This document shows, piece after piece, positions 11,912-31,486 of a stretch of 64,000 bases of DNA. Each line of letters starts with the position of its first letter. Positions within the stretch are counted from its first letter, which is position 1. The position numbers were made by a program, and so were the translations under genes. The DNA comes from Candidatus Limnocylindrales bacterium (GTDB lineage: Bacteria; Chloroflexota; Limnocylindria; Limnocylindrales; CSP1-4): the NCBI GenBank assembly GCA_050010635.1, contig JBEKKR010000006.1:35321-99320 (forward strand). Reading direction: 5' to 3'. Under the pieces are notes generated by a model. The model was given only the letters and a program-made list of their open reading frames with translations, ran no database searches and had not been told where the DNA came from.

Positions 11912-12040
11912 ACTGTCAACAAGGAGATTGAAACAAATCGGAACCTGTGGCAAGCTGCTGGCTATAGCCGCGCAAGGCCGCCGGAGGACTCGGTCGCCCG
12001 GGGCCCGCCCGACCCAGGAGCCTTCGCCAGCCAGACAGGG

Positions 12041-13231: not shown

Positions 13232-13304
13232 GAATCGAGACGGGACTTCGCATATCGAGGCAAGCTCGGAGCCTCGTTGCGGAACCGGCGGCGCCGTTGC
13301 CACG

Positions 13305-14827: not shown

Positions 14828-14856
14828 TTGACAGCCGGCTGCGGGAACCCTAGCAT
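14828..14856 (+). promoter_or_regulatory. sigma70-type promoter candidate for the ino1 operon
   Basis: TTGACA (14828-14833), a 17-nt spacer, then TAGCAT (14851-14856). It lies about 120 nt upstream of the ino1 start. Confidence 0.5.
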
Positions 14857-14861
14857 CAACA

Positions 14862-14879
14862 AGCCTTTATATAAAGGCT
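14862..14879. promoter_or_regulatory. perfect 18-bp palindrome, candidate operator
   Basis: AGCCTTTATATAAAGGCT is its own reverse complement. It starts 5 nt after the -10 hexamer, so it would cover the expected transcription start. Confidence 0.45.
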
Positions 14880-14974
14880 CATTGTTATGGAAGATGCCGG
14901 TCACAACGGAAGCCAGCCATGATGGCCGTCAGCCGCCTTCGTACGCAGCTTCGCAAAGAGGAGCAAGGAGCACA

Positions 14975-16231
14975 GTGAGCGACAAGTTGAGCAGCGACGC
15001 CGCGAACGCGAGCCACGCAAGCGTGGCTGCGGCGCCCGTCAGCGGCAACGGCCGAGCGCCCGAGAAGGGCAAGAAGATCCGGGTCGCCATCGTCGGCGTG
15101 GGCAACTGCGCCAGCAGCCTCATCCAGGGCCGCTACTACTACGAGAACGCGTCCGAGACCGACTTCGTCCCGGGTCTCATGCACGTCAACCTGGGCGGCT
15201 ACCACGTCCGCGACATCGAGTTCGTGGCCGCCTTCGACATCGACAAGAACAAGGTCGGCAAGGACCTGTCCGAGGCGATCTACGAGAAGCCCAACAACAC
15301 GATCGTGTTCCAGAAGGTCCCGCACATGGGCGTCAAGGTCGAGCGCGGCATGACCCACGACGGCCTGGGCAAGTATCTCTCCCAGATCATCGAGAAGGCC
15401 CCCGGGCCCACCGCCGACGTGGCCGGGATCATGCGCGATCGCAAGGTCGACGTCATGATCAACTACCTCCCGGTCGGCTCGGAAGAGGCGACCAAGTGGT
15501 ACGTGGAGCAGGCCCTCGCCGCCGGCGTCGGCGTCGTGAACTGCATCCCGGTCTTCATCGCCCGCGAGCCCTACTGGCAGCGCCGCTTCGCCGAGAAGGG
15601 CCTGCCGATCATCGGCGACGACATCAAGAGCCAGGTCGGGGCCACGATCAGCCATCGGGTCCTGACCCGCCTCTTCATGGACCGCGGCGTCCGCGTCGAC
15701 CGCACCTACCAGCTCAACTTCGGGGGCAACACCGACTTCCTCAACATGCTCGAGCGCGAACGATTGGAGTCCAAGAAGATCTCCAAGACCAACGCGGTCA
15801 CGAGCATGCTCGACTACGACATCGACCCCGACAACATCCACGTCGGCCCGTCGGACCACGTGCCCTGGCTTCTGGATCGCAAGTACTGCTACATCGTCAT
15901 GGAGGGCACGACCTTCGGTGACGTGCCGCTCAAGTGCGAGATGAAGCTCGAGGTCTGGGACAGCCCCAACAGCGCCGGCGTCGTCATCGACGCGCTGCGC
16001 TGCCTCAAGCTCGGTCTCGATCGCGGTCTCAAGGGCGCCCTCGTGGCACCCTCGGCGTACTTCAAGAAGAGCCCGCCCATCCAGATGCCCGACGACATCG
16101 CCTACAACCGCGTTCAGGCCTTCATCCGGGGCGAGGACAACGAAGCCCTCAACGGCACGGAGACGTTGCCCAAGAAGGTCAAGAAGAATGCCCCGGCTCG
16201 CGGCGGCAGGGCGGCCGTCGAGGCAAAGTGA
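14975..16231 (+). CDS. ino1: myo-inositol-1-phosphate synthase
   Basis: [22 protein letters not shown]-binding motif and overall MIPS collinearity. The start is set at GTG 14975, 4 nt after AAGGAG (14965-14970). The track start at 14828 is the -35 hexamer itself. Confidence 0.85.
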
Positions 16232-17382
16232 CTCAGGAACCTCTCAGCGTCGGTTCCGAATCGGTGAGCGGCGTCGGTCAAACCGGCGCCGCCCCGACCG
16301 CGGCCGGCACGTCCAAGAAGAACGGGGCGCCAGACGAGCCCACGAAGAAGTTTGTGGCGCCTCACCGCATGGAGAAGGAGACCTTCGGGGCTCACCTCGG
16401 CGGTCTCATCGCCGTGAGTTTCTGGCGCACGTCTTCGTGGATCGTCGGCCATCTCCCGGCCGGACCGACGTACCGGATCGGCGGCTGGCTGGCCATGATC
16501 GGCTACGCCACCAGCCCGCTCCGACGCCGCTGGCTGCGGGCCAATTTCGGCCACGTCCTGGGCGTTCCGCCCAACGACAGGGCCGCCCACCGCATGGCTC
16601 GGGCGGCGTATCACAACTACTCGCGCTACATCATGGAGCTGATGCGGCTGCCCTGGCTCCAGCCCGAGCAGGTCGATCAGCTGCTCGAGGTCCACAGCCT
16701 CGACAAGTTCCTCGAGATCTACGAGGCCTCCGATGGCGTCGTTCTCGTGGCCGCTCATCTCGGCAACAACGAGGCGGCGGCGGCCGGCTTCGCCAAGCAC
16801 GGCCTCGAGATCAACGTCGTCGGCGACGACAGCTCCTACCGCGAGCTGTACGAGCTGTTCGAGCGGCAACGGGAGAGCTGGGGCGTGAAGATGATCGCCT
16901 GGCGCAACCTGCGCGGCATCTTCGGTGCGTTGCGACGCCACGAGGGCCTGGTTCTCCTGGTCGACTGGGGCTACCGAGAGGACGGTATCCCGGTCAAGCT
17001 GTTCGGCTCGTGGACGACTCTCCCCGCCGGTCCGGCCACTCTCGCCGCGAAGCATGGCTCGGCGATCGTCCCATTCTCCATCAACCGGCAGCCGGACGGA
17101 ACCTTCCGGGCGGCGGCCGACGATCCGATCCTCGTCCCGTCCGACTCGCCCTCGGACCTGGCCATCGCCACGCAGAAGATCGCTACCGCCCTGGAGGGCC
17201 ACATCGCCCCCGCCCCGGAGCAGTGGTACAACTTCAAGCCGATCTGGCCGGCCACGGCCGAGGAGGCAGCCCGGCTCGAGGCCCGGCACCGGGCGGCCAT
17301 GGCGAACGACGCCAAAGGCGCGGCCCCGAACGGTCACGGCACGAACGGCGGTGCGGCTCCGACCCAGCCATCGGTGAAATGA
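16228..17382 (+). CDS. lysophospholipid/lipid A-type acyltransferase (LpxL/HtrB/PatA family)
   Basis: AHLGNNE (H-x4-E catalytic motif) is present, with an N-terminal hydrophobic anchor. GTG 16228 overlaps the ino1 stop (GTGA). The N-terminal extent is uncertain, since the internal MEKETFG is also a possible start. Confidence 0.7.
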
Positions 17383-18395
17383 CCGGCCGGGCCGCCTCTG
17401 CCACCGCCGGTCGCCCAGCTCCTCGCCGTGGCCTGCGCCGCAGGATCGTCGAGGAGTTGACGGCTTTCGCCGCAATCGGCGGAATGAAGCTGCTTCTCCA
17501 CCTCCCCGAGCGTGTGGCTTGGCCGCTCGCCGGCCTGGCCGGACGGATCTCCTACCGCGCCTCGGCGAAACGGCGCGACCGCGCCCGCCGCAACCTTCGA
17601 CGCGTGGTCGATTGGATGGCGGCCAACGGCCGAGGCGATGACCGATACCGCCGCGCCGCGACGGATCCGGCGGCCCTGGAGGAGCTCGTCCGGGATGCCT
17701 TCCGCCACCACGCCTGTTACAACGTCGAACTGGCCCGAGCCCCCAGCTGCGACGCTCGCTGGATCAGCGAGCGTCTGATCGTCGAGACTCCAGAGAGTGT
17801 CGCAGAGTGCCTGACCGAACGGCGGGCAATGATTCTGATCGGCATGCATTTCGGCGCGATAGAGATGCCGGGCATCCTGGCGGTCCAGGGAGTCGGCCCG
17901 CTGGTCACGCCGATGGAGTTCGTGGCCAACCCACGTATCGAGCGCTACATCTACTCGACCCGGGCCGCGGTCGGGACCAGGATCGTCAGCCTGAAGGACG
18001 CCCCGGCACAGCTTATCTCCGCTCTCCGCCAGAACGAGCCGGTTGGGCTGGTGGCCGATCGCGACATCACCGGCGGCGGCGTCGAGGTGGAGTTGTTCGG
18101 CGCCACGACGAGAATCCCGGCCGGACCGGCGATCCTGGCCGTCGAATCGGGCGCACCCGTGTGCATCGGAGCCGTGCGGCGGACCGCGCCGGGTCGCTAT
18201 CGTGGCAAGCTGTTGGCGCTGGCGGTACCCAAAGGCGCGAGCAGGCGTGAGCGGAGCAGGGCGATGCTGCGCGAAGAAGCGAGGGTTTTCGAACAGTTGA
18301 TCAGCGACGCGCCGGAGCAGTGGCTGGCCGTGTTCCACTCGATCTGGCCCGACCTGGACGGGCCGGAGATGAGCCATAGCGGAGGCGACGCGTGA
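17379..18395 (+). CDS. second LpxL/HtrB/PatA-family acyltransferase
   Basis: MHFGAIE (H-x4-E motif) is present and it is a paralogue of the upstream gene. ATG 17379 overlaps the upstream stop (ATGA). Confidence 0.7.
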   Translation: MTGRAASATAGRPAPRRGLRRRIVEELTAFAAIGGMKLLLHLPERVAWPLAGLAGRISYRASAKRRDRARRNLRRVVDWMAANGRGDDRYRRAATDPAALEELVRDAFRHHACYNVELARAPSCDARWISERLIVETPESVAECLTERRAMILIGMHFGAIEMPGILAVQGVGPLVTPMEFVANPRIERYIYSTRAAVGTRIVSLKDAPAQLISALRQNEPVGLVADRDITGGGVEVELFGATTRIPAGPAILAVESGAPVCIGAVRRTAPGRYRGKLLALAVPKGASRRERSRAMLREEARVFEQLISDAPEQWLAVFHSIWPDLDGPEMSHSGGDA

Positions 18396-19273
18396 CCGAC
18401 GGCAAGACGCAGCGGCTCGGCCAGGCGGACATGCACATCCATTCGATCGCCTCGGATGGAACGGCCTCGGCCGCCGAGATCCTGGAATACGCCGAAAGCC
18501 GCACCGATCTCGATGTCATCGCCATCGCCGACCACGAGCGCATCGAAGCCGCGGTCGAGTGCCGGCGCCTAGCCCACGAGCGCGGCAGCCGGGTCGAGGT
18601 CGTCGTGGCGGAGGAAGTCACGACCCGCAGCGGTCACCTGCTCGGCGTCTTCCTCCAGGCCCGCCTGAAGCGCGGCCAACGCCTCGAGACTACGGTCGCC
18701 GAGATCCACGAGCAGGGCGGTCTGGCCATCGTGCCGCACCCCTTCTCGGCATTCACGAAGGGCATGCGCAAGCACGCCATCATGCGAGTCCATCTCTCGA
18801 CCGATCCGCTCGTCTACTGGGACGCGCTTGAGGCCTATAACCCCTCGACGGCGGGGCGCTACGGCCGGACCGCGACCCTCCGGTTGGCCGCCGAGATCGG
18901 CCTGACGCTCGTCGGCAACAGCGACGGCCACACCCTCGACACCATCGGCGACGGCCGCACGTACTTCCCCGGTTCGACGGCGGAGGACTACCGGCGTGCG
19001 ATCCTCGAAGGGACGACGAGCGGTGGCTGCGTGGACTGGGGCTTCGTCCGGGAAGCCTTCATATACACCCGCCAGGTCCGCAAGCAGGCTAGAGACGTGA
19101 CGCGCTGGGGACGGCGCAACCTCCTGCGGGACGACCTGCCGCGTGACCTGGGTGTCCCCCACGAACAGCTGGCCCTGCAGCGGGAGCGCGAAGAGGAGTA
19201 CTTCTCCCGCCGAGGAGGCACCCACCAGGCGGCCAGGTTGGAGAACCTCGAAGCCGAGGAGCCGTCCGCGTGA
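18392..19273 (+). CDS. PHP-domain metal-dependent phosphoesterase
   Basis: ADMHIHSIASDGT and VIAIADHE are PHP motifs. The GTG start overlaps the upstream stop (GTGA). Confidence 0.75.
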   Translation: MTDGKTQRLGQADMHIHSIASDGTASAAEILEYAESRTDLDVIAIADHERIEAAVECRRLAHERGSRVEVVVAEEVTTRSGHLLGVFLQARLKRGQRLETTVAEIHEQGGLAIVPHPFSAFTKGMRKHAIMRVHLSTDPLVYWDALEAYNPSTAGRYGRTATLRLAAEIGLTLVGNSDGHTLDTIGDGRTYFPGSTAEDYRRAILEGTTSGGCVDWGFVREAFIYTRQVRKQARDVTRWGRRNLLRDDLPRDLGVPHEQLALQREREEEYFSRRGGTHQAARLENLEAEEPSA

Positions 19274-20469
19274 AGATCGGCCTCGTCACGCCCTACGTCT
19301 ACCCCCTGCCGGGGGGCGTGAACGAGCACGTCCGCTTCCTCTACGAGAATCTCCGCCTGCGCGGCCACGACGTCCGTATCCTGACCAGCAGCCACGGCCT
19401 GCAGCGCTCGTCCGAGGGCGACGTGATACGCATCGGCAAGGGTTTCAGCGTCCCCAGTAACGGTTCGGTCGGGACGATCACTCTCTCGCCGCGATATGTG
19501 TCGCAGGTCCAGAAGGTCCTCGACCGCGAGAAGTTCGACCTGCTCCACTTCCACGAGCCCTTCGTGCCGTTCCTCTCGCTTGTGGTGCTGCGCCAATCAA
19601 CGAGCGTGAACATCGCGACCTTCCACGCGTACGCCGGCTTCTCGCCGGCGATGGAGCTCGGCAAGCGGACGCTCTCGCACTACGCCGCCAGGCTGCACGG
19701 CCGGATCGCCGTCAGTGCGGCCGCCCGCCACTTCGCCGACCGGTTCTTCCCGGGCGACTTCAAGGTCATCCCGAACGGCGTGAACGTCGGCCGCTATCAG
19801 CGGGCGGTCCCGATCGCACGCTGGCAGGACGGCACCCTCAACATCCTGTTCGTGGGGCGCCTGGAGGATCGCAAGGGCCTGCCCCACCTGTTGAAGGCCT
19901 ACCGCCTGGTCCGGAAGAGAGGCTTCGCATGCCGGCTCCTGGTCGTCGGATCGGGCCCGCAGGAGCGCGAGGCGCGCCGCTACGTCATGACCCGCGGCCT
20001 CCAGAACGTCGAGTTCCTGGGCCGGGTCAGCGATGCGGAGAAGGCCCAGCTCTTCAAGACGGCCGACGTCTTCGTGTCGCCGGCCACCGGACGCGAGTCG
20101 TTCGGGATCGTTCTGCTCGAAGCAATGGCCGCCGGAACGCCGATCGTCTGCAGCGACATCCACGGCTACAAGGGCGTGGTTCAGCGCGGGCGCCAGGCCA
20201 TTCTCGTGCCGCCGAGAGACTCCAAGGCGCTGGCCGCGGGCATCTCCGAGCTGCTGGCCGACCCGACCCTGCGAGAGCGCATGGGCGCCGAGGGGTTGGA
20301 ACGAGCCGCCCAGTTCAGCTGGGAGCACGTCACGGCCCGGGTGGAGGCCTACTACGGCTTCGTCATCCGCCGGCTCGCGGCCCAGGGCGCGCTCCCGTCC
20401 GGGTTCGCGGCCGAGATTCCGCCGGCACCGCCGGTGCTGCACCCGTCCCTGGCCGATCACGAGGGCTGA
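19270..20469 (+). CDS. GT4 glycosyltransferase, PimA-like (phosphatidylinositol alpha-mannosyltransferase candidate)
   Basis: The N-terminus MKIGLVTPYVYPLPGGVNEHV resembles mycobacterial PimA as I recall it. An E-x7-E region is present (ESFGIVLLEAMAAGTPIV). The GTG start overlaps the PHP gene stop (GTGA). Confidence 0.7.
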   Translation: MKIGLVTPYVYPLPGGVNEHVRFLYENLRLRGHDVRILTSSHGLQRSSEGDVIRIGKGFSVPSNGSVGTITLSPRYVSQVQKVLDREKFDLLHFHEPFVPFLSLVVLRQSTSVNIATFHAYAGFSPAMELGKRTLSHYAARLHGRIAVSAAARHFADRFFPGDFKVIPNGVNVGRYQRAVPIARWQDGTLNILFVGRLEDRKGLPHLLKAYRLVRKRGFACRLLVVGSGPQEREARRYVMTRGLQNVEFLGRVSDAEKAQLFKTADVFVSPATGRESFGIVLLEAMAAGTPIVCSDIHGYKGVVQRGRQAILVPPRDSKALAAGISELLADPTLRERMGAEGLERAAQFSWEHVTARVEAYYGFVIRRLAAQGALPSGFAAEIPPAPPVLHPSLADHEG

Positions 20470-20533
20470 TCCGGCCGAATCCCCGGTCGGCGCGCGAGAT
20501 CGTCCTGGCAGGGTGGCCCGCCGAACGCCCGGC

Positions 20534-26500: not shown

Positions 26501-26884
26501 CCAGACGACGGCTGCGAGCCCAAGGTCCGCCAGCATGGGAACGAGCTTCACGACCTCGCCGATGCTCCCGCCGGTTAGGAGACTGACCGCCCCGAGCAGC
26601 AGCAGATAAACGGGCGGATAGTCGATGAAGCTCTGCCGATCGTAGAAGCCGATCGGGCCGTGCCTGGCGATGTCGTTGGCCCAGGCCTGGAACGCACCGA
26701 GGTCGTTTGGAAAACCCGACCCCGGAAAGAGGACGTATGCGATGATGAAGCGGAGGACGAAACCCAAGGCCAGGAGAGCGACGATGGCGGGAATCCCGGT
26801 GACGGCACCACTCGTGACGGCACTTATCGTTCCTGCCGACGCGCGCCCCCGTGGGCTGCCCTCACGCAAACTCGGTCCTGCCAA
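20534..26884 (-). CDS. 2116-aa polytopic membrane protein: fusion of two GT-C-type glycosyltransferase modules with a large extracytoplasmic insertion
   Basis: Module 1 (aa 1 to ~604, nt 25073-26884) has many hydrophobic helices. Its first loop, FPNDLGAFQAW...DYPPVY, resembles PIG-V/Gpi18- or DUF2029-type enzymes. An acidic/Pro-rich linker follows (aa ~605-745). Module 2 (aa ~745-2116) is PMT/GT39-like: HFDEVYHARTA (DE motif, M776 at nt 24557-24559), THPHVAKY, FSMTDGMLFVQSRIAMNDTY and the C-terminal HAASSPWWAWPMDLKPVWF. A ~460-aa non-membrane insert splits module 2. The TTG start at 26884 is uncertain. Confidence 0.75.
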   Translation of the reverse strand: MAGPSLREGSPRGRASAGTISAVTSGAVTGIPAIVALLALGFVLRFIIAYVLFPGSGFPNDLGAFQAWANDIARHGPIGFYDRQSFIDYPPVYLLLLGAVSLLTGGSIGEVVKLVPMLADLGLAAVVWLMAQELGVNRRRAFLVALIVLVNPITWFNSSIWGQADSVGSILLLLGLRELQKDRRETASALAVLAALTKMQLGILGFVVGFVVLRRSLLPKMGERQPERVLSSVGAGLLTGALVCLPFTGLDFGGAVQRIGTGPGLLTIAAGLVAGVGVFSLGRRYLPLAEAARRTQASALLGIGTVVAFSGMVFDSIASHMLSTFGEYPYLTLNAYNPWALVADGVNAMDRTHAWLHDAPWTDAKSGVSGPGYVIGPFSGETVALVLAAVALLVVAAFAARLWTRRNEVTEGAGTAPVAPGNRARAMRAAAAELGGLWGASVVVAAVVAGVVVASLSGQLYAVILGDVLLVAVLLGVGLWAAWRDDAQSLLVALTILAIAFFVVPTRAHERYLFPFFGLGAVLLAVSWRWSLTYAVLAVVNSANLLAVLVQYQGIPAGDGSLAQTLNDWGTGLLNAQWEGGVIWPIWVCGVTTGLAMAWALLQLRPRAVEALDREVARAALEPESSLWWSTIPVYPAEAAGDGWYAGEPPLDAASAAPPAAAPVPGTGLVAAAPLAAEGPGYAPGGVYDFDYTEEEAGWVDESGYLEEPDRPLYVPAWVMRLWHRLARPSTHPDRSASIDSEPRGRLDKLDIWVVVALVVVVLSMRVYRLGEPQQMHFDEVYHARTATEFLQDWRYGIPYNLPGGYVYEWTHPHVAKYGIAAGITLFSDDKVTASGALDSSVKDILVQPRTAASPLADPNNPDAQNTDARYGDRIFVATGSEVRVYDLETRALVGQYGIPGASAFSDIGSTGLLYVGSSDGRVYTIDTNNLDDVRLGNSNAIAPPKQMAVNTGLSIARLYAGTPPYLLAADATGNMVSIDLSKNGGTVVATGLVPGVADFADLGVGPSSLVKEPATSQSSSPTDTPSATPTDTPSSSPTDTASSSPTGTTPLAEVQALATALGLDQAVVQSALDQVFAAGISQALDFGPLTSSQISAVQALITQGLAPDIAVQSGTPQVMVAYQNGIGFVNARTLVITSTLATDAPATSIAINYSGLQGTSINGSQSSYVTAGDSLVLLHIDSTTSPWTVTKEPNQILKKMPGAVTQVVFDRATRVAQVLGRTPDGTGWTVYAIETNGNAVFSDARLPFQPVAIGLDSSPMMPDTDHEQVLAVAPDGSMATVDVGQFAFSWRIMGVLFGALMAVCLYLLARLLFKRRSIGLLVALFSMTDGMLFVQSRIAMNDTYVGGFLLLAYLLFALLWLDVWKSRVAFWLGMPVMGVILGFALASKWVALYAIASIGVLILIRSALGRLIAILGLAGGTGVLGWMAIGEMVTEPNTGNPAAVILLIGLAPFVVIGGFVWAMSVRATADRALIGVVTALVAAALVGAGLTMSPGALQNGAPNYTFFVIMLSVMALAAAANAYHPIAWTHEELWFAIGAPVVIGVLAALDGVLRGNGLALAVGAVAIAAGPAIAAAFWFAGTLGFGPLAPPPGPNDPARFADPPAPAPKGWLRLGTGFGLPAAWMAACVLILPIVIYVMLYIPWSMPWQPQTDATGQLPAIACWHTDPTTGVCDNAWPAGHTGQNLWNLTISMYNYHNDLRQPHAASSPWWAWPMDLKPVWFENQTYANDLGTMIYDGGNPAIWWMAIFAMAFVTWQAFKRRSLGLTLVVVAFFWQWLSWARIDRASFQYHFYTALPFFLLALAYFLAELWHGPSRRTWLLARAAGAGALIFPAAAWLLKYPLCGLARVSPGDYWGNTICGNGTGDVRIETRMLEVAIVLVVALIALALILWRLERRQNAGEEDPLWILQLLLPVGVAGALLGWFGTNGSRDTVFGAALPSDAITWVLLPVLAVVAFIALTARNPRRFVLGVCAAVIVTFLVLYPNLSALPLPNKIINVYEALLPTWFYGFQFSVNQQEGASVQLFGTWSILLTMVALFVAGFFAWAAWERRVVVGYRRWLRLSGDAGTGTEAEGAAEATAVSESTGPESAVAGDSAGPTEGPAPRRSRKDKPRS
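23732..23839 (-). repeat. in-frame Ser/Thr/Pro-rich reiterated linker inside the giant GT-C gene
   Basis: Encodes TSQSSSPTDTPSATPTDTPSSSPTDTASSSPTGTTP (aa 1016-1051) with repeated PTDT(P/A)S units. Confidence 0.8.
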
Positions 26885-26943
26885 CCGATACGGCCTCCTG
26901 GGCGAGCGCTGAGGTGGAGCGGAGTATAACCCAGCCCGAAGGT

Positions 26944-28758
26944 ATGGACGGCGGGCGGGTCCCGGCGGTGCCCGGGCCGCGAATGTCCGAGGAGGCGCCG
27001 GCTGAGGAGGCCGAAGAGCCGGCCGAATCGTTCGACCGGGCAGCGTGGGGCCGGATTCTGTGGGGCATCGGTCTCGTGGTGGTCTGCCTGGTCGTCTACT
27101 ACCTGAGCCAGCCGAATCGCGGCAATCCCTATCTGCATTTCGTGCTCCAGGCCCAGGCCTGGCTGGATGGGAAGACGGCGATTCCGCTGCCCCAGTACCA
27201 GGACGTGATGCCGATCCTCGACGCCGACGGCGCTCCGACGGGCGACGGCATCATCCCCTTCCCGCCCTTCCCGGCCTGGGTCCTGCTGCCCTTCGTCTCG
27301 ATCTGGAACCTGGCCACGAACGAGCAACTGCTGGCCGTGGTCTTCTCCGCGATCGACGTCGGCATCGCCTACTGGATGCTCGGGTACCTGCCGGTCCGCC
27401 AGGCCGTTCGGGTGCTCACCTCGCTCTTCCTCGGTCTGGGCACCGTGTTGTGGTACACGGCGGCCATCGGCTCCACGTGGTTCTGGGCCCACGTCGTGGC
27501 CGTGGGCTGCCTCCTTCTGTCGGTCGGCCTGGCCCTGCGCGCCGACCGCGACGCCGCGCAGCCCGTGCCGGCGCGGGACTTCATCGGGAGGGTCCGGCGG
27601 TCCAGCTGGCCGGGCGGCTGGAAGTCCGCCGTCCTGCTGGTCGCGCTGGGTGCTGCGGGCGAGACTCTCTTCCTCCTGGCAGGGGCGAATACTCCGGCCG
27701 CCGCCCTGACCGCGGTCGGCGTGCTGTTCAGCGTGGTCGCCGTGACGATCGCGGTCGTCGTCGCGGGGCGGCCCGGTGTCGTGGCGCCGTTCGCGATTGC
27801 CGTCGCGGTCGTCGGCGGGATCCCCCTCGTGGTCATCGGCGGCGCCAGCGAGAAGCTCGTGATCGCCGTCGTCGATCTCATCCTGATCCTGGTCGTGTTC
27901 GTGCTGTGGTGGTTCAGCCGGCGCAAGGGCGGGAGGGTGGATCGGGGTCTCTCGTCGCTCTCGGCCGCCCTGTCGAGCCCCGAGGCGCTGCAGGTCGCCG
28001 CCGGCATCCTGTTCGGGCTGGCCGTGACGGCCCGGCTGACGATCCTGTTCGGCTTCCCGTTCCTGATGCTCGTGGGCGGCGGTGGCAGCCGGCTGCGAAG
28101 GACCATGCTGGCCGGCGCCGGAGCGGCCGTCCCGCTCGTTACTCTCCTCGTCGTCACGTACGCGACCAGCGGCCATCTCTTCAACCCGGCCTACGACTAC
28201 CTGTACCACTACGAGGTCTCGACGGGCGCCTTCAACTACAACGCGGACTGGTCGATCACGGATATTCGCTACATCCCGCAGAACCTGGCGATCATGCTGT
28301 TCAGCGTGCCGCGGATCATGCCCGACTTCTACTCCATCTACCCCAACGGATCCGCCGGCACGGCCCTGTGCGTCGCCGGGACCGCCCGCGGCCTCTTCGA
28401 CCAGGGCTGCCCGCTGGCGATGCCCGACGCGATCGGCACGAGCATCATCCTGACCAGCCCGGCCTACCTTCTCGCCCCGCTCGCCTGGCGCCCCATCCGG
28501 CACCTGCAAATCGACCGGGTCACGGCCGGGGCCTCGATCGCCGTCGTGGACATCGCCATCGTCAACCTGATGCATTTCAGCCAGGGCTGGGTCCAGTTCG
28601 GCTACCGTTTCAGCAACGATTTCGTGCCGTTTGCCCTGATCCTGGTGGCCCTGGGTGCAAGCCGGCTGGGCCGGCTGTGGCCGCTGGTCCTGCTCGTCGG
28701 AATGTCGATCGTCGTGAACCTGTGGGGCACGATATGGGGAGTGATGCTTGGCTGGTGA
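26944..28758 (+). CDS. polytopic membrane protein, GT-C-like glycosyltransferase candidate (family unresolved)
   Basis: It has many hydrophobic helices. The first loop after TM1 is long and contains acidic residues (QYQDVMPILDADG). It is divergent from the giant GT-C gene across ~60 bp. The start is ATG 26944 or ATG 26983. Confidence 0.55.
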   Translation: MDGGRVPAVPGPRMSEEAPAEEAEEPAESFDRAAWGRILWGIGLVVVCLVVYYLSQPNRGNPYLHFVLQAQAWLDGKTAIPLPQYQDVMPILDADGAPTGDGIIPFPPFPAWVLLPFVSIWNLATNEQLLAVVFSAIDVGIAYWMLGYLPVRQAVRVLTSLFLGLGTVLWYTAAIGSTWFWAHVVAVGCLLLSVGLALRADRDAAQPVPARDFIGRVRRSSWPGGWKSAVLLVALGAAGETLFLLAGANTPAAALTAVGVLFSVVAVTIAVVVAGRPGVVAPFAIAVAVVGGIPLVVIGGASEKLVIAVVDLILILVVFVLWWFSRRKGGRVDRGLSSLSAALSSPEALQVAAGILFGLAVTARLTILFGFPFLMLVGGGGSRLRRTMLAGAGAAVPLVTLLVVTYATSGHLFNPAYDYLYHYEVSTGAFNYNADWSITDIRYIPQNLAIMLFSVPRIMPDFYSIYPNGSAGTALCVAGTARGLFDQGCPLAMPDAIGTSIILTSPAYLLAPLAWRPIRHLQIDRVTAGASIAVVDIAIVNLMHFSQGWVQFGYRFSNDFVPFALILVALGASRLGRLWPLVLLVGMSIVVNLWGTIWGVMLGW

Positions 28759-30556
28759 ACGTTTGAGCAGCCTCAAGCCGGACCTCGCTCGTCTGGCCAG
28801 TCCCAGCCTCCTGGGAGCGCTGGCGGCTCCCGCGGCCGCGGCCGGGCTGACTCTCCTCTTCGTCATCCCCACGCTGGCCCCGACCGTCGGCTTCTGGGAC
28901 ACGGCCGAATTCCAGACAGTCGGTCCCGTTCTCGGCACTGCTCACCCCACGGGCTACCCGAGCTACGTGATCCTGGGCTGGCTCGCCTCGATCGTGCTCC
29001 AGCCGTTCGGGGAACCGGCCTACCGGATGAACCTGCTCCAGGCGATCCTGGCGGCCGTGGCCGTGGCCGGGGCCACGGGCATCGTCCAGGTGCTAACGGG
29101 CCGGCGGATGATCGCCCTGGCCACGGGTCTGCTGCTGGCCTGCAGCCAGCTCTTCTGGCGGCTCTCAACGCACGCCGACCCGCACATGTTCCACATCGCG
29201 CTCACGGCTCTGCTGTTCGTGGTGCTGCTGACGTGGGACAACCGGCGCCACAGCGCGGACCCGGAGACGGTTGCCCACGCCGACCGCTGGCTCGTGGCGG
29301 CGGCCGGCATCTACGGCGTCGCCGTCGCCAATCACTCCCTGGCCCTACTGCTGCCGCCCGCCATCGGGTTGTTCGTCCTGGCCGTGGACTGGCGGGTCGT
29401 CTTCCGACGGCGCACGATCGCGGCCTGCGTCGCCGTGCTTGCCGGCACGATCGTTGTCCTCTTCCTCGAGCTGCCGATCCGGGCGGCAATGCACGCCCCC
29501 CTCGTCTACGGCCACCCGGATACGGTGGCCGGCTTCCAGTACGTGGTCCTGGCCGAGCAGTTCCGGGGCAGCCTCGTCGATCCGTTCGGCGACCTTCCGG
29601 CGAAAGCCGGCCGCGTCCTGGACCTCATGACCGGCTGGCTCGGGCCGATGGCGGCTCTGGCGGCGCTCGGGCTGGTCACGAGCCTGGTCCGGCGCCCGCG
29701 CTACGTCCTCCTCAGCGGACTCTCGGCCGTCGTCACGTGCGTCTTCGCGGCTTCGTACGCCAACGCGGATATCGAGCGCTACTACCTGCTGCCACTGATG
29801 ATCGCGTTCACGTGGATCGGCCTCGGTTTCGCCGACATCGTGACCCTCTTTGCCTGGGCCGTCGCGGCGTGGCAGCAACCCGCCCGGAGCTCCGCTGATG
29901 CTGCCTCCGAGCCGGCCGGCGAGTCGGCGAGTCTGGCCGGCGTGGAGCCCGCGCCGGGGCCCGAGGAGGGGTCCGCCGACGGCTGGGCCGCCCCTCAACC
30001 GCCCCGGACGGGCAGCCATGACGACGGCTGGGCCAGCTGGGTCGTCCTGATCGGCGAGATGGTCGTGGCGGCGGCGGTCGTCTTCTCAACCGTCGGCGTC
30101 GTTGCGGCACGCCAGGGGATCAACGCCGGCGACAACCCGGGGGGCGTAAGCGAGGCGGGCAACACTCAATACTCGACCTGGATGAACGCCGTGCTGGCGC
30201 CTCCGGGCCAGGGCGGCCTGGCGAAAGACGCGGTCATCGAATCCACCTGGTCGGCTTCGACCATCCTGTGGTACGGCCAGAGGGTTCTGGGACTCAGGCC
30301 GGACGTCCTGATCGTCGATGACAGCACGCGCAAGGACGACCACATCGGCCCCTCGGGCGAAGTCTGGGACGTCTTCGACATGTACCTGGGCACCCGGCCG
30401 GTGTACACCGATCGAATCCAGGGCGGCTGCGACGGCATCGACGCGTTGGGCACGGCCTACGATCTGCGGCGGACCGCTCTGACGAACATCTACCAGGTCG
30501 TGAGCCGGCTCGAGCCGCGCGTCGACCTGCCCCCATGCGATCCGGTCAAGCCGTAA
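28748..30556 (+). CDS. DUF2723 (TMEM260-like) polytopic membrane protein, putative glycosyltransferase
   Basis: VGFWDTAEFQTVGPVLGTAHPTGYPSY matches the DUF2723 N-terminal signature as I recall it. Multiple TM helices are followed by a C-terminal soluble domain. The TTG start overlaps the upstream gene by 11 nt, so the start is uncertain. Confidence 0.65.
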   Translation: MAGERLSSLKPDLARLASPSLLGALAAPAAAAGLTLLFVIPTLAPTVGFWDTAEFQTVGPVLGTAHPTGYPSYVILGWLASIVLQPFGEPAYRMNLLQAILAAVAVAGATGIVQVLTGRRMIALATGLLLACSQLFWRLSTHADPHMFHIALTALLFVVLLTWDNRRHSADPETVAHADRWLVAAAGIYGVAVANHSLALLLPPAIGLFVLAVDWRVVFRRRTIAACVAVLAGTIVVLFLELPIRAAMHAPLVYGHPDTVAGFQYVVLAEQFRGSLVDPFGDLPAKAGRVLDLMTGWLGPMAALAALGLVTSLVRRPRYVLLSGLSAVVTCVFAASYANADIERYYLLPLMIAFTWIGLGFADIVTLFAWAVAAWQQPARSSADAASEPAGESASLAGVEPAPGPEEGSADGWAAPQPPRTGSHDDGWASWVVLIGEMVVAAAVVFSTVGVVAARQGINAGDNPGGVSEAGNTQYSTWMNAVLAPPGQGGLAKDAVIESTWSASTILWYGQRVLGLRPDVLIVDDSTRKDDHIGPSGEVWDVFDMYLGTRPVYTDRIQGGCDGIDALGTAYDLRRTALTNIYQVVSRLEPRVDLPPCDPVKP

Positions 30557-30682
30557 GGCGTGGCCCAGTGAGATCGGCCGCACCTCGACGACGATCTGAG
30601 ATAGGCTCAGGATGCTTTCAGCAGTCTCATCGGTAATGGCCAGGTCTCAACGATCTCAGCTAGCAGGCCGAAAGGAAAGCCA

Positions 30683-31486
30683 GTGAGCGCAGCCGCGGGT
30701 CCGGCAACGGCAAACGAGGGGTCGGGATCGCCGGTCCGGCGTGTCAAGGAGCTGTCGTTCTTCTTCCCGGCCCACAACGAGGAAGCCAATCTCGAGGGTC
30801 TGGTCGACGAGGCTCTCGGGGCCCTGCCGGCGCTGGCCGAGAAGTTCGAGATCATCGCCGTAGACGATGGCTCACGCGACCGCACGCCGGCCATCGCCGA
30901 CGAGCTCGCGGCCAGAGACCCCGGCGTGTTTCGTGTCGTCCACCACCCCACGAACCTGGGCTACGGGGCGGCGCTCCGGTCCGGGTTCCGGGCCGCTCGC
31001 TTCGAGCTGGTCGCCTTCATCGACGGCGACCGCCAGTTCAAGGTTGCGGACGTCGGGCGGCTGACCGAACGGCTGGCCGCCGCGGATGCCCCGGATGTCG
31101 TCGTCGGGTTTCGCCTCAAGCGCGCCGATCCGCCGATCCGGCGCTGGTATGCCCGCATCTACCGCCTCTCGAACAGGATCTTCTTCGGAGTCCGGGTCCG
31201 CGACATCGACTGCGCCTGCAAGCTCTTCAAGCGCGAGGCCCTAACCGCCATCCGCGTCTCCTCGGGCGGCGCCTTCTTCACTGCGGAGCTCCTGATCAAG
31301 CTCAGGTTCAACGGGCGCAAGATCGCCGAGGTCGGCGTCCCTCACTACGCCAGGACCGCCGGATCGCCGACCGGGGCCAAGCCGAAGGTAGTCTTCCGGG
31401 CCGTCCGCGACTTCTGGTCGCTGCGTTTCCGCCTCTGGTTCAAGCGCCGCGGCGCCATGCAGGTCGGCGAACCGATCCTGGGCTAG
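30683..31486 (+). CDS. GT2 glycosyltransferase, polyprenyl-phosphate mannose/glucose synthase-like (DPM1/Ppm1/GtrB type)
   Basis: ELSFFFPAHNEEANL, IIAVDDGSRDRT and VAFIDGDRQF (DxD) are present. A Shine-Dalgarno-like AGGAAAG precedes GTG 30683. Confidence 0.75.
   Translation: MSAAAGPATANEGSGSPVRRVKELSFFFPAHNEEANLEGLVDEALGALPALAEKFEIIAVDDGSRDRTPAIADELAARDPGVFRVVHHPTNLGYGAALRSGFRAARFELVAFIDGDRQFKVADVGRLTERLAAADAPDVVVGFRLKRADPPIRRWYARIYRLSNRIFFGVRVRDIDCACKLFKREALTAIRVSSGGAFFTAELLIKLRFNGRKIAEVGVPHYARTAGSPTGAKPKVVFRAVRDFWSLRFRLWFKRRGAMQVGEPILG

What the first reader, a model, noticed from the sequence alone, without database searches (positions are those of the whole stretch)
14828..31486. Inositol-lipid anchor operon physically joined to a four-module GT-C glycosyltransferase block and its lipid-sugar donor synthase: candidate lipoglycan or envelope-glycosylation system
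About 16.7 kb holds nine genes with one coherent biochemical logic. First, inositol-phosphate is made (ino1). Second, the lipid is acylated (two LpxL/PatA-type acyltransferases). Third, a cytoplasmic GT4 resembling PimA adds a sugar, and a PHP phosphoesterase is co-encoded. Fourth, a GT2 of the polyprenyl-phosphate-sugar synthase type would make the donor that GT-C enzymes use outside the membrane. Fifth, there are four GT-C-type modules: two fused in the 2116-aa protein, one in 26944-28758, and one DUF2723. In mycobacteria this same division of labour builds PIM, LM and LAM: PimA/PatA act on the cytoplasmic face, then Ppm1 and GT-C mannosyltransferases act outside. There, however, the genes are scattered and the GT-C enzymes belong to other families. 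Here the whole set is contiguous and uses PMT/GT39-like and DUF2723-like modules, which are families otherwise linked to protein O-mannosylation. Two products are therefore possible. One is a new PI-anchored lipoglycan. The other is a protein O-glycosylation machine co-regulated with PI glycolipids.
Basis: partly seen in the sequence, partly recalled or inferred. Interest (0 to 1): 0.8.

Follow-up and report, generated by a model that had tools for sequence, protein, structure and literature searches.

The report
Inositol-lipid operon beside glycosyltransferase block
An uncultured soil and freshwater bacterial class (Candidatus Limnocylindria, Chloroflexota) keeps next to its replication origin an operon for mannosylated, acylated inositol phospholipids. 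Beside it lies a block of membrane glycosyltransferases that includes a 2,116-residue double enzyme; this hints at an actinobacteria-like sugar-coated envelope, but it is unproven that the two halves act on the same molecule.

Summary
All nine genes exist. Eight of the nine family assignments hold (Pfam, NCBIfam, PDB, fold search); the GT-C status of ORF 26944-28758 is only weakly supported.

ino1, two PatA-like acyltransferases, a PHP phosphoesterase and a clear PimA homologue form one operon. All four gene junctions are 4-nt start/stop overlaps.

The 2116-aa protein fuses an ALG6/GPI-mannosyltransferase-like GT-C module to a PMT module. The PMT module's first outer loop carries a ~450-aa insertion just after the DE motif.

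The whole block is syntenic in 44 of 45 fully covered genomes of Ca. Limnocylindria. The flanking origin region (dnaN, recF) is equally conserved, so adjacency alone does not prove coupling.

The key addition concerns relatives: 50 of 50 have an ArsR-type regulator and a phosphatidylinositol-phosphate synthase directly upstream of ino1. In this window both are missing, and the conserved promoter and palindrome abut ino1 instead.

Best reading: an acyl-PIM operon, with PHP as a candidate PIP phosphatase, lies beside a polyprenyl-phosphate-sugar-dependent GT-C block that mainly O-mannosylates proteins. Extension of PIM to a lipoglycan is possible but unshown. This is a new variant of known actinobacterial logic and is undescribed in the searched literature.

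The parts
14828..14856 (+). Promoter-like site TTGACA-N17-TAGCAT of the inositol-lipid operon
   Evidence: Consensus scan, 10 of 12 matches. Both hexamers are invariant in the window, L003, L005 and L007.
14862..14879 (.). Perfect 18-bp palindrome AGCCTTTATATAAAGGCT; candidate operator for the ArsR-type regulator encoded after it in relatives
   Evidence: Unique in the window; 0 of 100 shuffles match. The identical sequence lies upstream of arsR-PIPS in L003, L005 and L007.
14894..16231 (+). ino1, myo-inositol-phosphate synthase (start uncertain, roughly 14894-15000)
   Evidence: PF01658 E 1.7e-35; TIGR03450 516 bits, below the 638 equivalog cutoff. 70-91% identical across the class.
16228..17382 (+). 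acT1, LpxL/PatA-family acyltransferase
   Evidence: PF03279 E 9e-37. Best NCBIfam model is PatA PRK07920 at 133 bits, cutoff 209. GTGA overlap with the ino1 stop.
17379..18395 (+). acT2, second PatA-like acyltransferase (26% identical to acT1)
   Evidence: PF03279 E 1.3e-37. The only PDB hits are PatA (5oce, E 4.9e-21), with the catalytic His aligned. ATGA overlap with acT1. acT1/acT2 identity.
18392..19273 (+). PHP-family metal-dependent phosphoesterase; candidate PIP phosphatase (inferred)
   Evidence: PHP_C E 1.6e-7, PHP 0.0013; CehA/McbA metallohydrolase domain 72.6 bits. Present in 44 of 45 full loci. GTGA overlaps on both sides.
19270..20469 (+). pimA-like GT4 (GDP-mannose:phosphatidylinositol mannosyltransferase homologue)
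   Evidence: PDB PimA 4n9w/2gej E 7e-60 over residues 1-364, against 4e-22 for the next GT4. Stretches I read from memory as the PimA GDP-Man/catalytic motifs (GGV, FH, GR..RKG, ESFGIVL-EAMAAG) align. 72-90% identical across the class.
25025..26797 (-). Giant protein, N-terminal GT-C module (aa ~30-620)
   Evidence: AlphaFold model pLDDT 82. Foldseek: AglB E 4e-4, ALG6 TMt 0.67, GPI mannosyltransferase I TMt 0.60, PIGU. D61 in the first loop is invariant. Pfam GT87 reaches only E 0.006.
24380..24652 (-). Giant protein, PMT module TM1 plus loop-1 DE motif (aa 745-835; D779-E780 in MHFDEVYHART)
   Evidence: These columns are invariant in 10 homologues at 40-68% identity. After removal of the insertion, the Pfam PMT match extends to HMM positions 2-199.
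23030..24379 (-). Giant protein, ~450-aa extracytoplasmic insertion in PMT loop 1. It has one beta-propeller-blade-like match and a Ser/Thr/Pro-rich linker.
   Evidence: Splice test: PMT score rises from 35.7 to 54.5 bits. PDB 'Cake' designed protein hits at aa 906-943. No Pfam family. Linker sequence read.
20534..23029 (-). Giant protein, PMT core plus PMT_4TMC plus C-terminal TM region (aa 1286-2116)
   Evidence: PF02366 E 8.9e-9 and PF16192 E 2.3e-9, both above the gathering cutoffs. About 20 hydrophobic segments.
26944..28758 (+). orf7, polytopic membrane protein of a family without a Pfam model; possible GT-C (start 26911, 26944 or 26983)
   Evidence: No Pfam hit. Model pLDDT 74; best Foldseek hits are PglB, STT3, Pmt4 and DPY19, but E is 0.04-0.5. 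hhalign is negative. 1706 representative relatives. One distant relative has sub-threshold PMT_2, and two appear fused to TMEM260-like pieces (sub-threshold Pfam hits).
28748..30556 (+). TMEM260-like/DUF2723 GT-C
   Evidence: PF11028 E 3.6e-24; PMT_2 E 1.5e-6. Human TMEM260 9rql E 5.2e-11. D51 and E54 in the first loop are invariant. Its start overlaps the orf7 stop.
30683..31486 (+). GT2 of the polyprenyl-phosphate sugar synthase type; no TM segment
   Evidence: PF00535 E 1.1e-28. PDB: ArnC E 8e-13, P. furiosus DPMS E 6e-12, GtrB E 5.5e-8. NCBIfam ArnC and PpgS about 60 bits, far below cutoffs. No hydrophobic segment.

Best explanation
The region is a conserved, origin-proximal envelope-glycoconjugate locus of Candidatus Limnocylindria. 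It is made of two neighbouring systems.

System 1 is the translationally coupled operon ino1-acT1-acT2-PHP-pimA. In relatives it is arsR-PIPS-ino1-acT1-acT2-PHP-pimA. Proposed steps:
- MIPS makes inositol phosphate.
- PIP synthase (encoded elsewhere, or lost, in this genome) joins it to CDP-diacylglycerol.
- The PHP phosphoesterase removes the phosphate to give PI (inferred).
- PimA adds mannose from GDP-mannose on the cytoplasmic face.
- The two PatA-like enzymes acylate the product, giving mono- or di-acylated PIM.

System 2 is the giant gene plus the divergent orf7-DUF2723-GT2 unit.
- The GT2 charges polyprenyl phosphate with a hexose, probably mannose.
- After flipping, the GT-C modules use this donor outside the membrane.
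- The PMT-like and TMEM260-like modules most probably O-mannosylate secreted or membrane proteins.
- The ALG6/GPI-mannosyltransferase-like N-terminal module, fused to the PMT module, either elongates that glycan or extends the acyl-PIM made next door.

Status of the steps. Shown: gene families, operon structure, domain architecture and conservation. Inferred: every substrate, the role of PHP, the sugar, and any hand-over of PIM to the GT-C block.
For: - Families.
- Operon: four 4-nt start/stop overlaps, and a conserved promoter plus palindrome.
- PIP synthase sits in the same operon in 50 of 50 relatives with enough flank. It is closest to M. tuberculosis PgsA1 (E 1.7e-21) and to the AIP/PIP synthase NCBIfam models (146 and 130 bits, against 29 for PgsA).
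- PHP is present in 44 of 45 loci, always between acT2 and pimA.
- The PIP pathway needs a phosphatase. The only one identified in bacteria is the PgpA-type BT_1525 of Bacteroides (PMC9246714).
- The PMT DE motif and first-loop acidic residues are invariant in the giant-protein modules (D61, D779, E780), in DUF2723 (D51, E54) and, among close orf7 homologues at 60% identity or more, in orf7 (D74 of the 26983-start protein).
- Splice test of the PMT module.
- The GT2's nearest solved relatives are polyprenyl-phosphate sugar synthases.
- Synteny holds in 44 of 45 genomes.
- PI is a major lipid in cultured Ktedonobacteria of the same phylum (PMC12453558).
Against: - The window has no PIP synthase in 64 kb, nor in the 6 kb beyond its start.
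- The PatA, Ino1 and Pmt equivalog cutoffs of NCBIfam are not reached.
- The stretch aligned to PimA's basic run THRKVKKWI reads YVSQVQKVL here; from memory that run is PimA's membrane-binding helix.
- PHP shows no specific similarity to any known lipid phosphatase.
- The sugar carried by the GT2 is undetermined.
- The PI operon and the giant gene are convergent, separate transcription units.
- dnaN, recF, DciA, p766 and BFN are conserved in order just as strongly, so the synteny may be inherited collinearity.
- L038 has the GT-C block but no PI operon within 10 kb; an IS110 transposase lies there instead.
- The GT-C status of orf7 is unproven.
Confidence: 0.5

Rival explanations
1. Single product. 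All four GT-C modules and the GT2 extend the acyl-PIM made by the adjacent operon into a PI-anchored lipomannan-like lipoglycan.
For: - The adjacency is kept in 44 of 45 genomes.
- The best-superposing solved structures for the N-terminal module (by TM-score) are ALG6 and GPI mannosyltransferase I, which glycosylate lipid-linked acceptors. The hit list (ALG6, PIGU, ArnT, PglB-type OSTs) resembles that reported for PimE (PMC12041525).
- The Pfam GT87 match is weak (E 0.006), though some homologues carry a precomputed PF09594 hit.
- From established knowledge, actinobacteria use exactly this logic for PIM, LM and LAM.
Against: - The characterised members I know of in the PMT and TMEM260 families are protein O-mannosyltransferases (TMEM260: abstracts; PMT: my knowledge).
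- No PimB-like second GT4 was found, and no GT87 match above threshold.
- PimE itself is not among the top 50 fold hits.
- The units are transcribed separately and convergently.
- orf7, DUF2723 and GT2 are each dispensable in some genomes.
- L038 lacks the adjacency.
Confidence: 0.2
2. Unrelated neighbours. The PI/acyl-PIM operon makes only membrane lipids and the GT-C block glycosylates only proteins. Their adjacency is inherited origin-proximal gene order with no functional link.
For: - The whole stretch from dnaN to the CorA/MFS genes beyond PIPS is collinear across the class.
- The two systems are convergent, separate transcription units.
- L038 separates them.
- Operon content itself drifts. 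The window lacks arsR-PIPS, and L001 and L023 lack ino1.
Against: - The only rearrangement seen in the window's lineage cut between PIPS and ino1, not between the two systems.
- The N-terminal GT-C module is of a type that acts on lipid-linked acceptors.
- From established knowledge, in actinobacteria the same polyprenyl-phosphate-mannose pool serves both PIM elongation and Pmt.
Confidence: 0.25
3. In this particular organism the operon no longer makes PI lipids, because arsR and PIPS are deleted. The remaining genes would make another inositol compound, such as a soluble or acylated mannosyl-inositol with PHP removing the phosphate as in mycothiol synthesis. Alternatively they are on the way to decay.
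For: - No PIPS in the window or in the 6 kb beyond it.
- The promoter and operator are fused directly to ino1.
- By analogy with MshA plus an unidentified phosphatase (my knowledge), a GT4 plus a phosphatase acting on inositol phosphate is chemically plausible.
Against: - All five genes are intact, with strong codon bias and coupled junctions.
- The GT4 is far closer to PimA than to MshA (206 versus about 58-70 bits).
- A relative whose PHP is 86% identical still has arsR-PIPS.
- ino1 is likewise absent from the operon in L001 and L023, so relocation of single genes is common.
- Only 64 kb (plus 6 kb beyond its start) of this genome, whose size is unknown, was seen.
Confidence: 0.05

Closest known systems
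Actinobacterial early PIM operon (M. tuberculosis Rv2612c pgsA1 - Rv2611c patA - Rv2610c pimA - Rv2609c)
   Same: PIP synthase, PatA-type acyltransferase and PimA are encoded in one operon. PimA is homologous over its full length (E 7e-60). The PIPS of relatives is closest to PgsA1.
   Different: - Here ino1 is inside the operon.
- There are two divergent acyltransferases (26% identical).
- A PHP phosphoesterase takes the place of the Nudix gene.
- An ArsR-type regulator leads the operon in relatives.
- The host is Chloroflexota.
- PIPS is missing from this window.
- NCBIfam equivalog cutoffs are not reached.
Actinobacterial protein O-mannosylation (Ppm1 polyprenol-phosphate-mannose synthase plus Pmt, GT39)
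   Same: A GT2 of the polyprenyl-phosphate sugar synthase type is encoded with a PMT-family GT-C that keeps the loop-1 DE motif and the PMT_4TMC region.
   Different: - The PMT module is fused behind a second GT-C module.
- It carries a ~450-aa insertion in loop 1.
- It scores 36 bits against the 800-bit cutoff of the Pmt equivalog model.
- Two further GT-C-like proteins accompany it.
- The GT2 has no Lnt-like or TM partner in the cluster.
PimE / MptA / MptB (GT87 GT-C mannosyltransferases of PIM, LM and LAM synthesis)
   Same: These are GT-C enzymes that use polyprenyl-phosphate-mannose to extend PI-anchored glycolipids. The N-terminal module's fold hits (ALG6, PIGU, ArnT, OSTs) resemble those reported for PimE (PMC12041525).
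   Different: The Pfam GT87 match is below threshold (16.7 versus 25 bits). PimE is not among the top fold hits. No biochemical link was tested.
Bacteroides thetaiotaomicron inositol-lipid cluster (BT_1522-BT_1526; Heaver et al. 2022, PMC9246714)
   Same: MIPS, PIP synthase and a PIP phosphatase are clustered, and PI is made through PIP.
   Different: The phosphatase there is PgpA-type, whereas here the only phosphatase is PHP-type. There is no sphingolipid branch here. PimA and PatA-type steps are added.
Human TMEM260 (protein O-mannosyltransferase of IPT domains; PMC10214176)
   Same: The N-terminal transmembrane GT-C region is homologous (PF11028 86 bits; PDB 9rql E 5e-11, residues 22-353).
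   Different: The C-terminal ~250 residues are unrelated, with no TPR hit. The acceptor is unknown and the context is bacterial.
Eukaryotic GPI-anchor mannosylation (PIG-M/GPI14, PIG-V/GPI18)
   Same: An inositol phospholipid is built on the cytoplasmic face, then mannosylated on the other face by GT-C enzymes using polyprenyl(dolichyl)-phosphate-mannose. The N-terminal module superposes on GPI mannosyltransferase I (TMt 0.60).
   Different: This is an analogy of logic and fold only. There is no sequence-level family membership and no GlcN-PI steps.

Membership tests
PimA (GT4 GDP-mannose:PI mannosyltransferase) | Full-length homology to characterised PimA that is clearly stronger than to other GT4 enzymes | tested here: met
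   4n9w/2gej E 7e-60, 206 bits, residues 1-364. Next best hits are 82 bits (Tll1590), 71 bits (PimB') and 70 bits (MshA).
PimA (GT4 GDP-mannose:PI mannosyltransferase) | Catalytic and GDP-Man binding residues (GGV loop, His of FH, Arg/Lys of GR..RKG, EX7E) | tested here: met
   All are aligned and conserved in the HMMER alignment. Residue roles come from my knowledge of the PimA structures.
PimA (GT4 GDP-mannose:PI mannosyltransferase) | Basic amphipathic helix used for membrane and PI binding | tested here: not met
   PimA reads THRKVKKWI; the window reads YVSQVQKVL, so most basic residues are lost.
PimA (GT4 GDP-mannose:PI mannosyltransferase) | Transfers mannose to PI | not testable with these tools
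   Needs an enzyme assay.
PatA (PIM acyltransferase, LpxL superfamily) | Lip_A_acyltrans domain, with PatA as the closest characterised member | tested here: met
   PF03279 E 1e-37 for both proteins. The best NCBIfam model is PRK07920 for both. The only PDB hits of acT2 are PatA.
PatA (PIM acyltransferase, LpxL superfamily) | Score above the NCBIfam equivalog cutoff | tested here: not met
   133 and 128 bits against a cutoff of 209.
Myo-inositol-phosphate synthase | Inos-1-P_synth domain and full-length match to the actinobacterial-type Ino1 model | tested here: met
   PF01658 122 bits. TIGR03450 positions 1-355 of 355, E 6e-155, though 516 bits is below the 638 equivalog cutoff.
PI synthesis via PIP (PIP synthase step) | A CDP-alcohol phosphatidyltransferase of the PIP/AIP synthase type is present | tested here: not met
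   Absent from the window. Present directly upstream of ino1 in 50 of 50 relatives.
PIP phosphatase | Homology to the known bacterial PIP phosphatase (PgpA-type BT_1525) | not tested
   No direct comparison with BT_1525 or the PgpA family was run. Pfam and NCBIfam place the protein in the PHP family and list no PgpA-type hit. The proposed role rests on operon position only.
PMT / GT39 protein O-mannosyltransferase | PMT and PMT_4TMC domains above the Pfam gathering cutoffs | tested here: met
   35.7 bits (cutoff 22.7) and 37.4 bits (cutoff 32.4). PMT rises to 54.5 bits after removing the insertion.
PMT / GT39 protein O-mannosyltransferase | Asp-Glu motif in the first extracytoplasmic loop | tested here: met
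   D779 and E780 are invariant in 10 homologues.
PMT / GT39 protein O-mannosyltransferase | Orthology to bacterial Pmt (NCBIfam NF058602) | tested here: not met
   35.9 bits against a cutoff of 800.
TMEM260-like / DUF2723 GT-C | PF11028 above cutoff and homology to solved TMEM260 | tested here: met
   86 bits (cutoff 24.2). 9rql E 5.2e-11.
Polyprenyl-phosphate sugar synthase (GT2; DPMS/ArnC/GtrB/Ppm1 type) | GT2 catalytic domain whose nearest characterised relatives are polyprenyl-phosphate glycosyltransferases | tested here: met
   PF00535 E 1e-28. PDB: ArnC, DPMS and GtrB. NCBIfam: ArnC and PpgS on top, but far below cutoffs.
Polyprenyl-phosphate sugar synthase (GT2; DPMS/ArnC/GtrB/Ppm1 type) | Which sugar it transfers, and that it transfers to a polyprenyl phosphate | not testable with these tools
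   Needs an assay.
GT-C fold (giant protein, N-terminal module) | Structural match to solved GT-C enzymes and an acidic residue in the first loop | tested here: met
   pLDDT 82. Fifteen of the first 20 Foldseek hits are GT-C transferases and four more are PIGU, a GT-C-like-fold GPI-transamidase subunit. AglB E 4e-4, ALG6 TMt 0.67. D61 is invariant.
GT87 (PimE/MptA family) for the N-terminal module | Pfam PF09594 above cutoff | tested here: not met
   16.7 bits against a cutoff of 25, E 0.006.
GT-C fold (orf7, 26944-28758) | Structural or profile match to GT-C enzymes | tested here: inconclusive
   The best fold hits are GT-C enzymes, but E is 0.04-0.5 and TM 0.2-0.4. hhalign probability is 4% and 12%. 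The PDB profile search found nothing. The LA_3751 hit has E 5e-4. A distant relative has PMT_2 at E 4.8e-4.
LM/LAM-type PI-anchored lipoglycan system | A second cytoplasmic mannosyltransferase (PimB'), GT87 elongating enzymes, and a demonstrable lipoglycan | tested here: not met
   There is no second GT4 and no GT87 above threshold in the window or the loci. The product itself is not testable here.

The most novel reading that the evidence does not exclude
A whole class of abundant, uncultured Chloroflexota makes PI-anchored, acylated mannolipids and extends them outside the membrane into a lipomannan-like lipoglycan. The extension would use a 2,100-residue dual GT-C enzyme. The co-operonic PHP protein would be a new, non-PgpA type of phosphatidylinositol-phosphate phosphatase, an enzyme I believe (from my own knowledge) is still unidentified in actinobacteria. 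PIM/LM-type envelopes would then not be an actinobacterial speciality.
Probability: 0.2. Interest if true: 0.85.

Novelty: new variant of a known kind. Interest (0 to 1): 0.6.

Why it matters
Ca. Limnocylindria (Ellin6529) appears to have no cultured member (my knowledge; nothing in the papers searched describes one), so nothing is known about its envelope.

This locus predicts testable lipids in environmental lipidomes: PI, and mono- or di-acyl PIM. It offers a concrete candidate for the PIP phosphatase of the PIP-dependent PI pathway. It also shows an unprecedented GT-C architecture, an ALG6/PIG-M-like module fused to a PMT module with a large domain inserted in the catalytic loop.

If the two halves are coupled, PI-anchored lipoglycans exist outside Actinobacteria. 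If they are not coupled, the locus still documents actinobacteria-like PIM synthesis and protein O-mannosylation in another phylum of the Bacillati (Terrabacteria) group.

Tried and rejected
1. Sequence-profile searches of orf7 and of the giant N-terminal module against all PDB chains found nothing. Only fold comparison was informative.
2. hhalign of the orf7 family against the DUF2723 family and against the giant N-terminal family gave probabilities of 4% and 12%. I therefore do not count orf7 as an established GT-C.
3. I searched for a PIP synthase in the window by tblastn and by motif, and 6 kb beyond the window start. None was found.
4. I tried to confirm the rhaK-ino1 junction in independent assemblies. 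The exact ino1 product from ATG 14894 is not on record. Contigs of the closest relatives end inside ino1 or acT1 (L081, L085-L087), and a rhamnose-side contig ends in rhaK (L082). The junction therefore rests on this one assembly.
5. The PHP homologue search was meant to find the gene next to pimA outside the class. All 120 listed hits are at least 76% identical Limnocylindrales proteins, so it gave no information beyond the class.
6. From memory I first took the N-terminal module to be 'GT-C_B'. The PimE paper places ALG6 in GT-C_A, so I make no subclass claim.
7. The terminator scan found no more sites than shuffled sequence, so it gives no evidence on operon ends.
8. Literature: the one paper holding both 'Limnocylindria' and 'inositol' was not opened; the 2026 Limnocylindria genomics paper mentions neither inositol nor glycosyltransferases; the Chloroflexi-PIM search returned only the MetaCyc paper.

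Full report
SOURCE AND SETTING

The window is 68% G+C. It lies beside a chromosomal replication origin: dnaA 39046-40746, dnaN 36274-37419, recF 35050-36255, DciA 34676-35083 and yidC 41480-42838.

Homologues of the largest protein that carry a source name are mostly called Candidatus Limnocylindrales. All 80 related genome loci come from metagenome-assembled genomes, nearly all labelled Chloroflexota (Limnocylindrales, Limnocylindria, 'Chloroflexia', 'Chloroflexi'); two are labelled Methylomirabilota and Patescibacteria, which I take to be mis-binned. The class (also called Ellin6529) averages 68.9% G+C (PMC10608941). As far as I know it has no cultured member; the papers searched describe none.

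Upstream of the finding lies a rhamnose-type sugar catabolism cluster at 1-14747, comprising aldolase/SDR, dehydrogenases, an ABC sugar transporter, a DeoR regulator, an isomerase-like TIM barrel and an FGGY kinase.

Codon-position G+C identifies nine real genes between 14.8 and 31.5 kb. Pfam and NCBIfam give the following.
- ino1: PF01658; TIGR03450 E 6e-155.
- Two LpxL-superfamily acyltransferases. Their best NCBIfam model is the PIM acyltransferase PatA (133 and 128 bits, below the 209 cutoff).
- A PHP/PHP_C phosphoesterase.
- A GT4.
- A 2116-aa protein with PMT and PMT_4TMC domains.
- An ORF with no family (orf7).
- A TMEM260-like/DUF2723 protein.
- A GT2.

The GT4 aligns over its full length with solved PimA (E 7e-60, against 4e-22 for the next GT4). 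Stretches I recognise from memory as the PimA nucleotide-sugar and catalytic motifs align and are conserved. The stretch aligned to PimA's basic run THRKVKKWI (its membrane-binding helix, from memory) reads YVSQVQKVL here.

The only PDB hits of acT2 are PatA structures (E 5e-21), with the catalytic His aligned. acT1 and acT2 are 26% identical, so they are old paralogues.

The GT2's four nearest solved relatives are ArnC (three entries) and an archaeal dolichyl-phosphate-mannose synthase, with GtrB further down the list; all are polyprenyl-phosphate sugar synthases. It has no transmembrane segment. The DUF2723 protein matches human TMEM260 (E 5e-11).

OPERON STRUCTURE

All four junctions of ino1-acT1-acT2-PHP-pimA are 4-nt start/stop overlaps: GTGA at 16228, ATGA at 17379, GTGA at 18392 and GTGA at 19270. 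This is the signature of a translationally coupled operon.

The coordinate 14828, given as the start of the finding, is the -35 hexamer of a promoter-like site, TTGACA-N17-TAGCAT. It is followed by a perfect 18-bp palindrome at 14862-14879 and then by the first in-frame ATG at 14894.

The giant gene (minus strand) converges on pimA, with 64 bp between the two stop codons. It diverges from orf7-DUF2723, whose stop and start overlap. The GT2 follows after 126 bp. The giant/orf7 divergent spacer is only 26-215 bp, depending on which start codons are used.

ANATOMY OF THE GIANT PROTEIN

Residues ~30-620 give a confident model (pLDDT 82). Fifteen of its first 20 structural matches are GT-C transferases and four more are PIGU, a GPI-transamidase subunit with a GT-C-like fold. 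They include AglB (E 4e-4), ALG6 (TM 0.67 normalised to ALG6), GPI mannosyltransferase I (0.60), ALG3, PIGU, Pmt4 and ArnT. This hit spectrum resembles that reported for the PIM mannosyltransferase PimE (PMC12041525). However, PimE itself is not among the top 50 hits, and the Pfam GT87 match is sub-threshold.

A second module starts with a transmembrane helix at 750-768 and the invariant motif MHFDEVYHART (D779, E780), which is the PMT loop-1 DE motif. The Pfam PMT match in the native protein covers only HMM positions 83-199. After I removed residues 836-1284 in silico, it covered positions 2-199 and rose from 35.7 to 54.5 bits.

So a ~450-aa domain is inserted in the catalytic first outer loop. 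This domain has no Pfam family, one beta-propeller-blade-like match and a Ser/Thr/Pro-rich linker.

First-loop acidic residues are invariant in the giant N-terminal module (D61), the PMT module (D779/E780) and DUF2723 (D51/E54). D74 of orf7 is invariant too, but only within an alignment of close homologues (at least 60% identical).

ORF7

orf7 has no Pfam family. Its model (pLDDT 74) finds PglB, STT3, Pmt4 and DPY19 first, but with E 0.04-0.5 and TM 0.2-0.4. Profile-profile comparison with the two neighbouring GT-C families is negative.

The family is large: 1706 representative clusters at E <= 1e-3. One distant member has a sub-threshold PMT_2 match. Two long members carry sub-threshold TMEM260-like matches (23.6 and 21.7 bits against a 24.2 cutoff), suggesting fusions that echo the orf7-DUF2723 adjacency. 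I treat orf7 as a possible, unproven GT-C.

CONSERVATION

A scan of one genome per species with a profile of the giant protein returned 573 relatives. The best 80 loci were kept, and I mapped all window proteins onto them by tblastn.

The order is dnaN-recF-(DciA)-p766-BFN | GT2-DUF2723-orf7 | giant | pimA-PHP-acT2-acT1-ino1. Among 45 loci with full flanks:
- the giant gene, recF, p766 and BFN are present in 45;
- pimA, PHP, acT2, acT1 and ino1 are present in 44;
- GT2 is present in 43, DUF2723 in 40 and orf7 in 36.

Identity of the giant protein falls to about 35%, while PimA stays at 72-90% and Ino1 at 70-91%.

The exception is L038. There the giant gene is followed by a two-component system and an IS110 transposase, with no PI operon within 10 kb.

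Four loci (L006, L009, L014, L015) hold a paralogue of only the PMT-plus-insertion half, located elsewhere in the genome. Because the housekeeping genes of the origin region are conserved in order just as well, the adjacency of the two systems is not by itself evidence of a shared function.

THE MISSING ENZYME

A motif scan for CDP-alcohol phosphatidyltransferases found one directly upstream of ino1, on the same strand, in relatives. It is present in 50 of 50 loci that extend at least 900 bp beyond ino1.

This enzyme is of the PIP-synthase type. Its best PDB hits are M. tuberculosis PgsA1 (E 1.7e-21) and other PIP synthases. Its NCBIfam scores are 146 bits for archaetidylinositol-phosphate synthase and 130 for PIP synthase, both below those models' curated cutoffs (180 and 170), against 29 for PgsA.

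An ArsR-type HTH gene precedes it in 52 loci. The ancestral operon is therefore arsR-PIPS-ino1-acT1-acT2-PHP-pimA.

The window has neither arsR nor PIPS, and neither lies in the 6 kb beyond its start. Yet its promoter hexamers and palindrome are the same sequences that precede arsR in L003, L005 and L007. A stretch of about 1.1 kb between the operator and ino1 is therefore absent in this lineage.

A relative whose PHP is 86% identical still has the full operon (L088). L001 and L023 have arsR-PIPS-acT1 without ino1. Single genes evidently move in and out of this operon, so a PIPS copy elsewhere in this genome is likely but unverified. The junction rests on this one assembly, because contigs of the nearest relatives break inside ino1 or acT1.

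MECHANISM

Shown: the gene families, the coupled operon, the domain architecture and the conservation.

Inferred from established knowledge of the PIP-dependent PI pathway and of PimA and PatA:
- MIPS makes inositol phosphate.
- PIPS makes PIP.
- A phosphatase gives PI.
- PimA adds mannose from GDP-mannose.
- PatA-type enzymes acylate the product. The second acyltransferase could perform the second acylation, for which I know of no assigned enzyme in mycobacteria.

The PHP protein is the only phosphatase in the operon and is universally retained. The only bacterial PIP phosphatase identified so far is the PgpA-type BT_1525 of Bacteroides (PMC9246714). I therefore propose PHP as the PIP phosphatase, with a probability of about 0.45. 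Alternatives are an inositol-monophosphatase or a nucleotide phosphatase.

For the GT-C block, the GT2 most likely forms a polyprenyl-phosphate hexose. The PMT-like and TMEM260-like modules most likely O-mannosylate proteins, because every characterised member I know of in these families does (TMEM260: PMC10214176). The fused N-terminal module either elongates that glycan or extends acyl-PIM.

PI is a major lipid of cultured Ktedonobacteria in the same phylum (PMC12453558), so PI lipids in this phylum are not exotic.

COMPARISON AND NOVELTY

The PI half is a variant of the actinobacterial pgsA1-patA-pimA operon, with ino1, a second acyltransferase, PHP and an ArsR regulator added. The GT-C half recalls the actinobacterial Ppm1/Pmt pair but has a new architecture.

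The 2026 genomics paper on Limnocylindria mentions neither inositol nor glycosyltransferases. The single paper holding both 'Limnocylindria' and 'inositol' was not opened, and the Chloroflexi-PIM search returned only the MetaCyc paper.

I rate the finding a new variant of a known kind. It is of interest mainly for the PHP candidate, for the dual GT-C enzyme, and for the prospect of PIM or lipoglycan chemistry in an abundant uncultured class.

Noticed in passing
window 14828-14893; L003 22900-23200, L005 10720-11020, L007 21340-21640: The promoter hexamers and the 18-bp palindrome are identical in species whose giant proteins are only ~65% identical. In relatives they precede arsR-PIPS. In the window they abut ino1, implying loss of about 1.1 kb (arsR plus PIPS).
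   Followed up: yes
window 1-14747: A sugar (rhamnose-type) catabolism cluster: class II aldolase/SDR fusion, two Zn-dehydrogenases, aldolase, ABC sugar transporter, DeoR regulator, TIM-barrel isomerase-like protein and FGGY kinase. Relatives instead have ArsR, an MFS transporter, CorA and a sortase on this side of the operon.
   Followed up: partly
window 32291-34591 (-): A conserved 766-aa protein with no Pfam family. It has one transmembrane segment (aa 318-336), a very weak PP2C-like N-terminus and a Ser/Thr/Pro-rich C-terminal tail. It lies next to the GT-C block in 45 of 45 loci and could be an O-glycosylation substrate (speculative).
   Followed up: partly
window 23600-23700 (giant protein, aa ~1040-1075): A Ser/Thr/Pro-rich linker (SSPTDTPSATPTDTPSSSPTDTASSSPTGTT) sits inside the domain inserted in the PMT loop. 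From my own knowledge, such linkers are often O-mannosylated in actinobacterial proteins.
   Followed up: no
L006, L009, L014, L015: Paralogues of only the C-terminal half (PMT plus insertion) of the giant protein, elsewhere in the genome and without the cluster. L014 is from the same MAG as L003.
   Followed up: partly
L038 15200-25208: The one full-length locus in which the giant gene is not followed by the PI operon. Unknown ORFs, a GAF histidine kinase with a LuxR-type regulator, and an IS110-family transposase lie there instead.
   Followed up: yes
L001 11600-12700; L023 20600-21500: The operon variant arsR-PIPS-acT1-acT2-PHP-pimA has no ino1 between PIPS and acT1.
   Followed up: partly
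P0392 (1298 aa), P0395 (743 aa): Distant relatives of orf7 with sub-threshold Pfam matches to TMEM260-like segments (23.6 and 21.7 bits against a 24.2 cutoff), suggesting fusions that mirror the orf7-DUF2723 gene pair.
   Followed up: partly
L081, L085, L086, L087 (contig ends): Contigs of the closest relatives from four different assemblies all end inside ino1 or acT1. A rhamnose-side contig (L082) ends in the FGGY kinase. This is probably assembly fragmentation at a very conserved gene or a strain-variable junction.
   Followed up: partly
window 49378-49747 (-) and 52326-52940 (-): tmRNA (tag peptide GNNQSALALAA) and smpB lie 2.6 kb apart.
   Followed up: yes
window 44136-46268 (+) and 49879-52146 (-): Two large paralogous VanW plus PG_binding_4 proteins (710 and 755 aa) flank an MFS transporter and the tmRNA.
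   Followed up: no
L088 12152-17616: In this 940-kb contig the giant gene is called as fragments of 696 and 596 aa with small ORFs between them. This is either assembly frameshifts or a disrupted gene.
   Followed up: no
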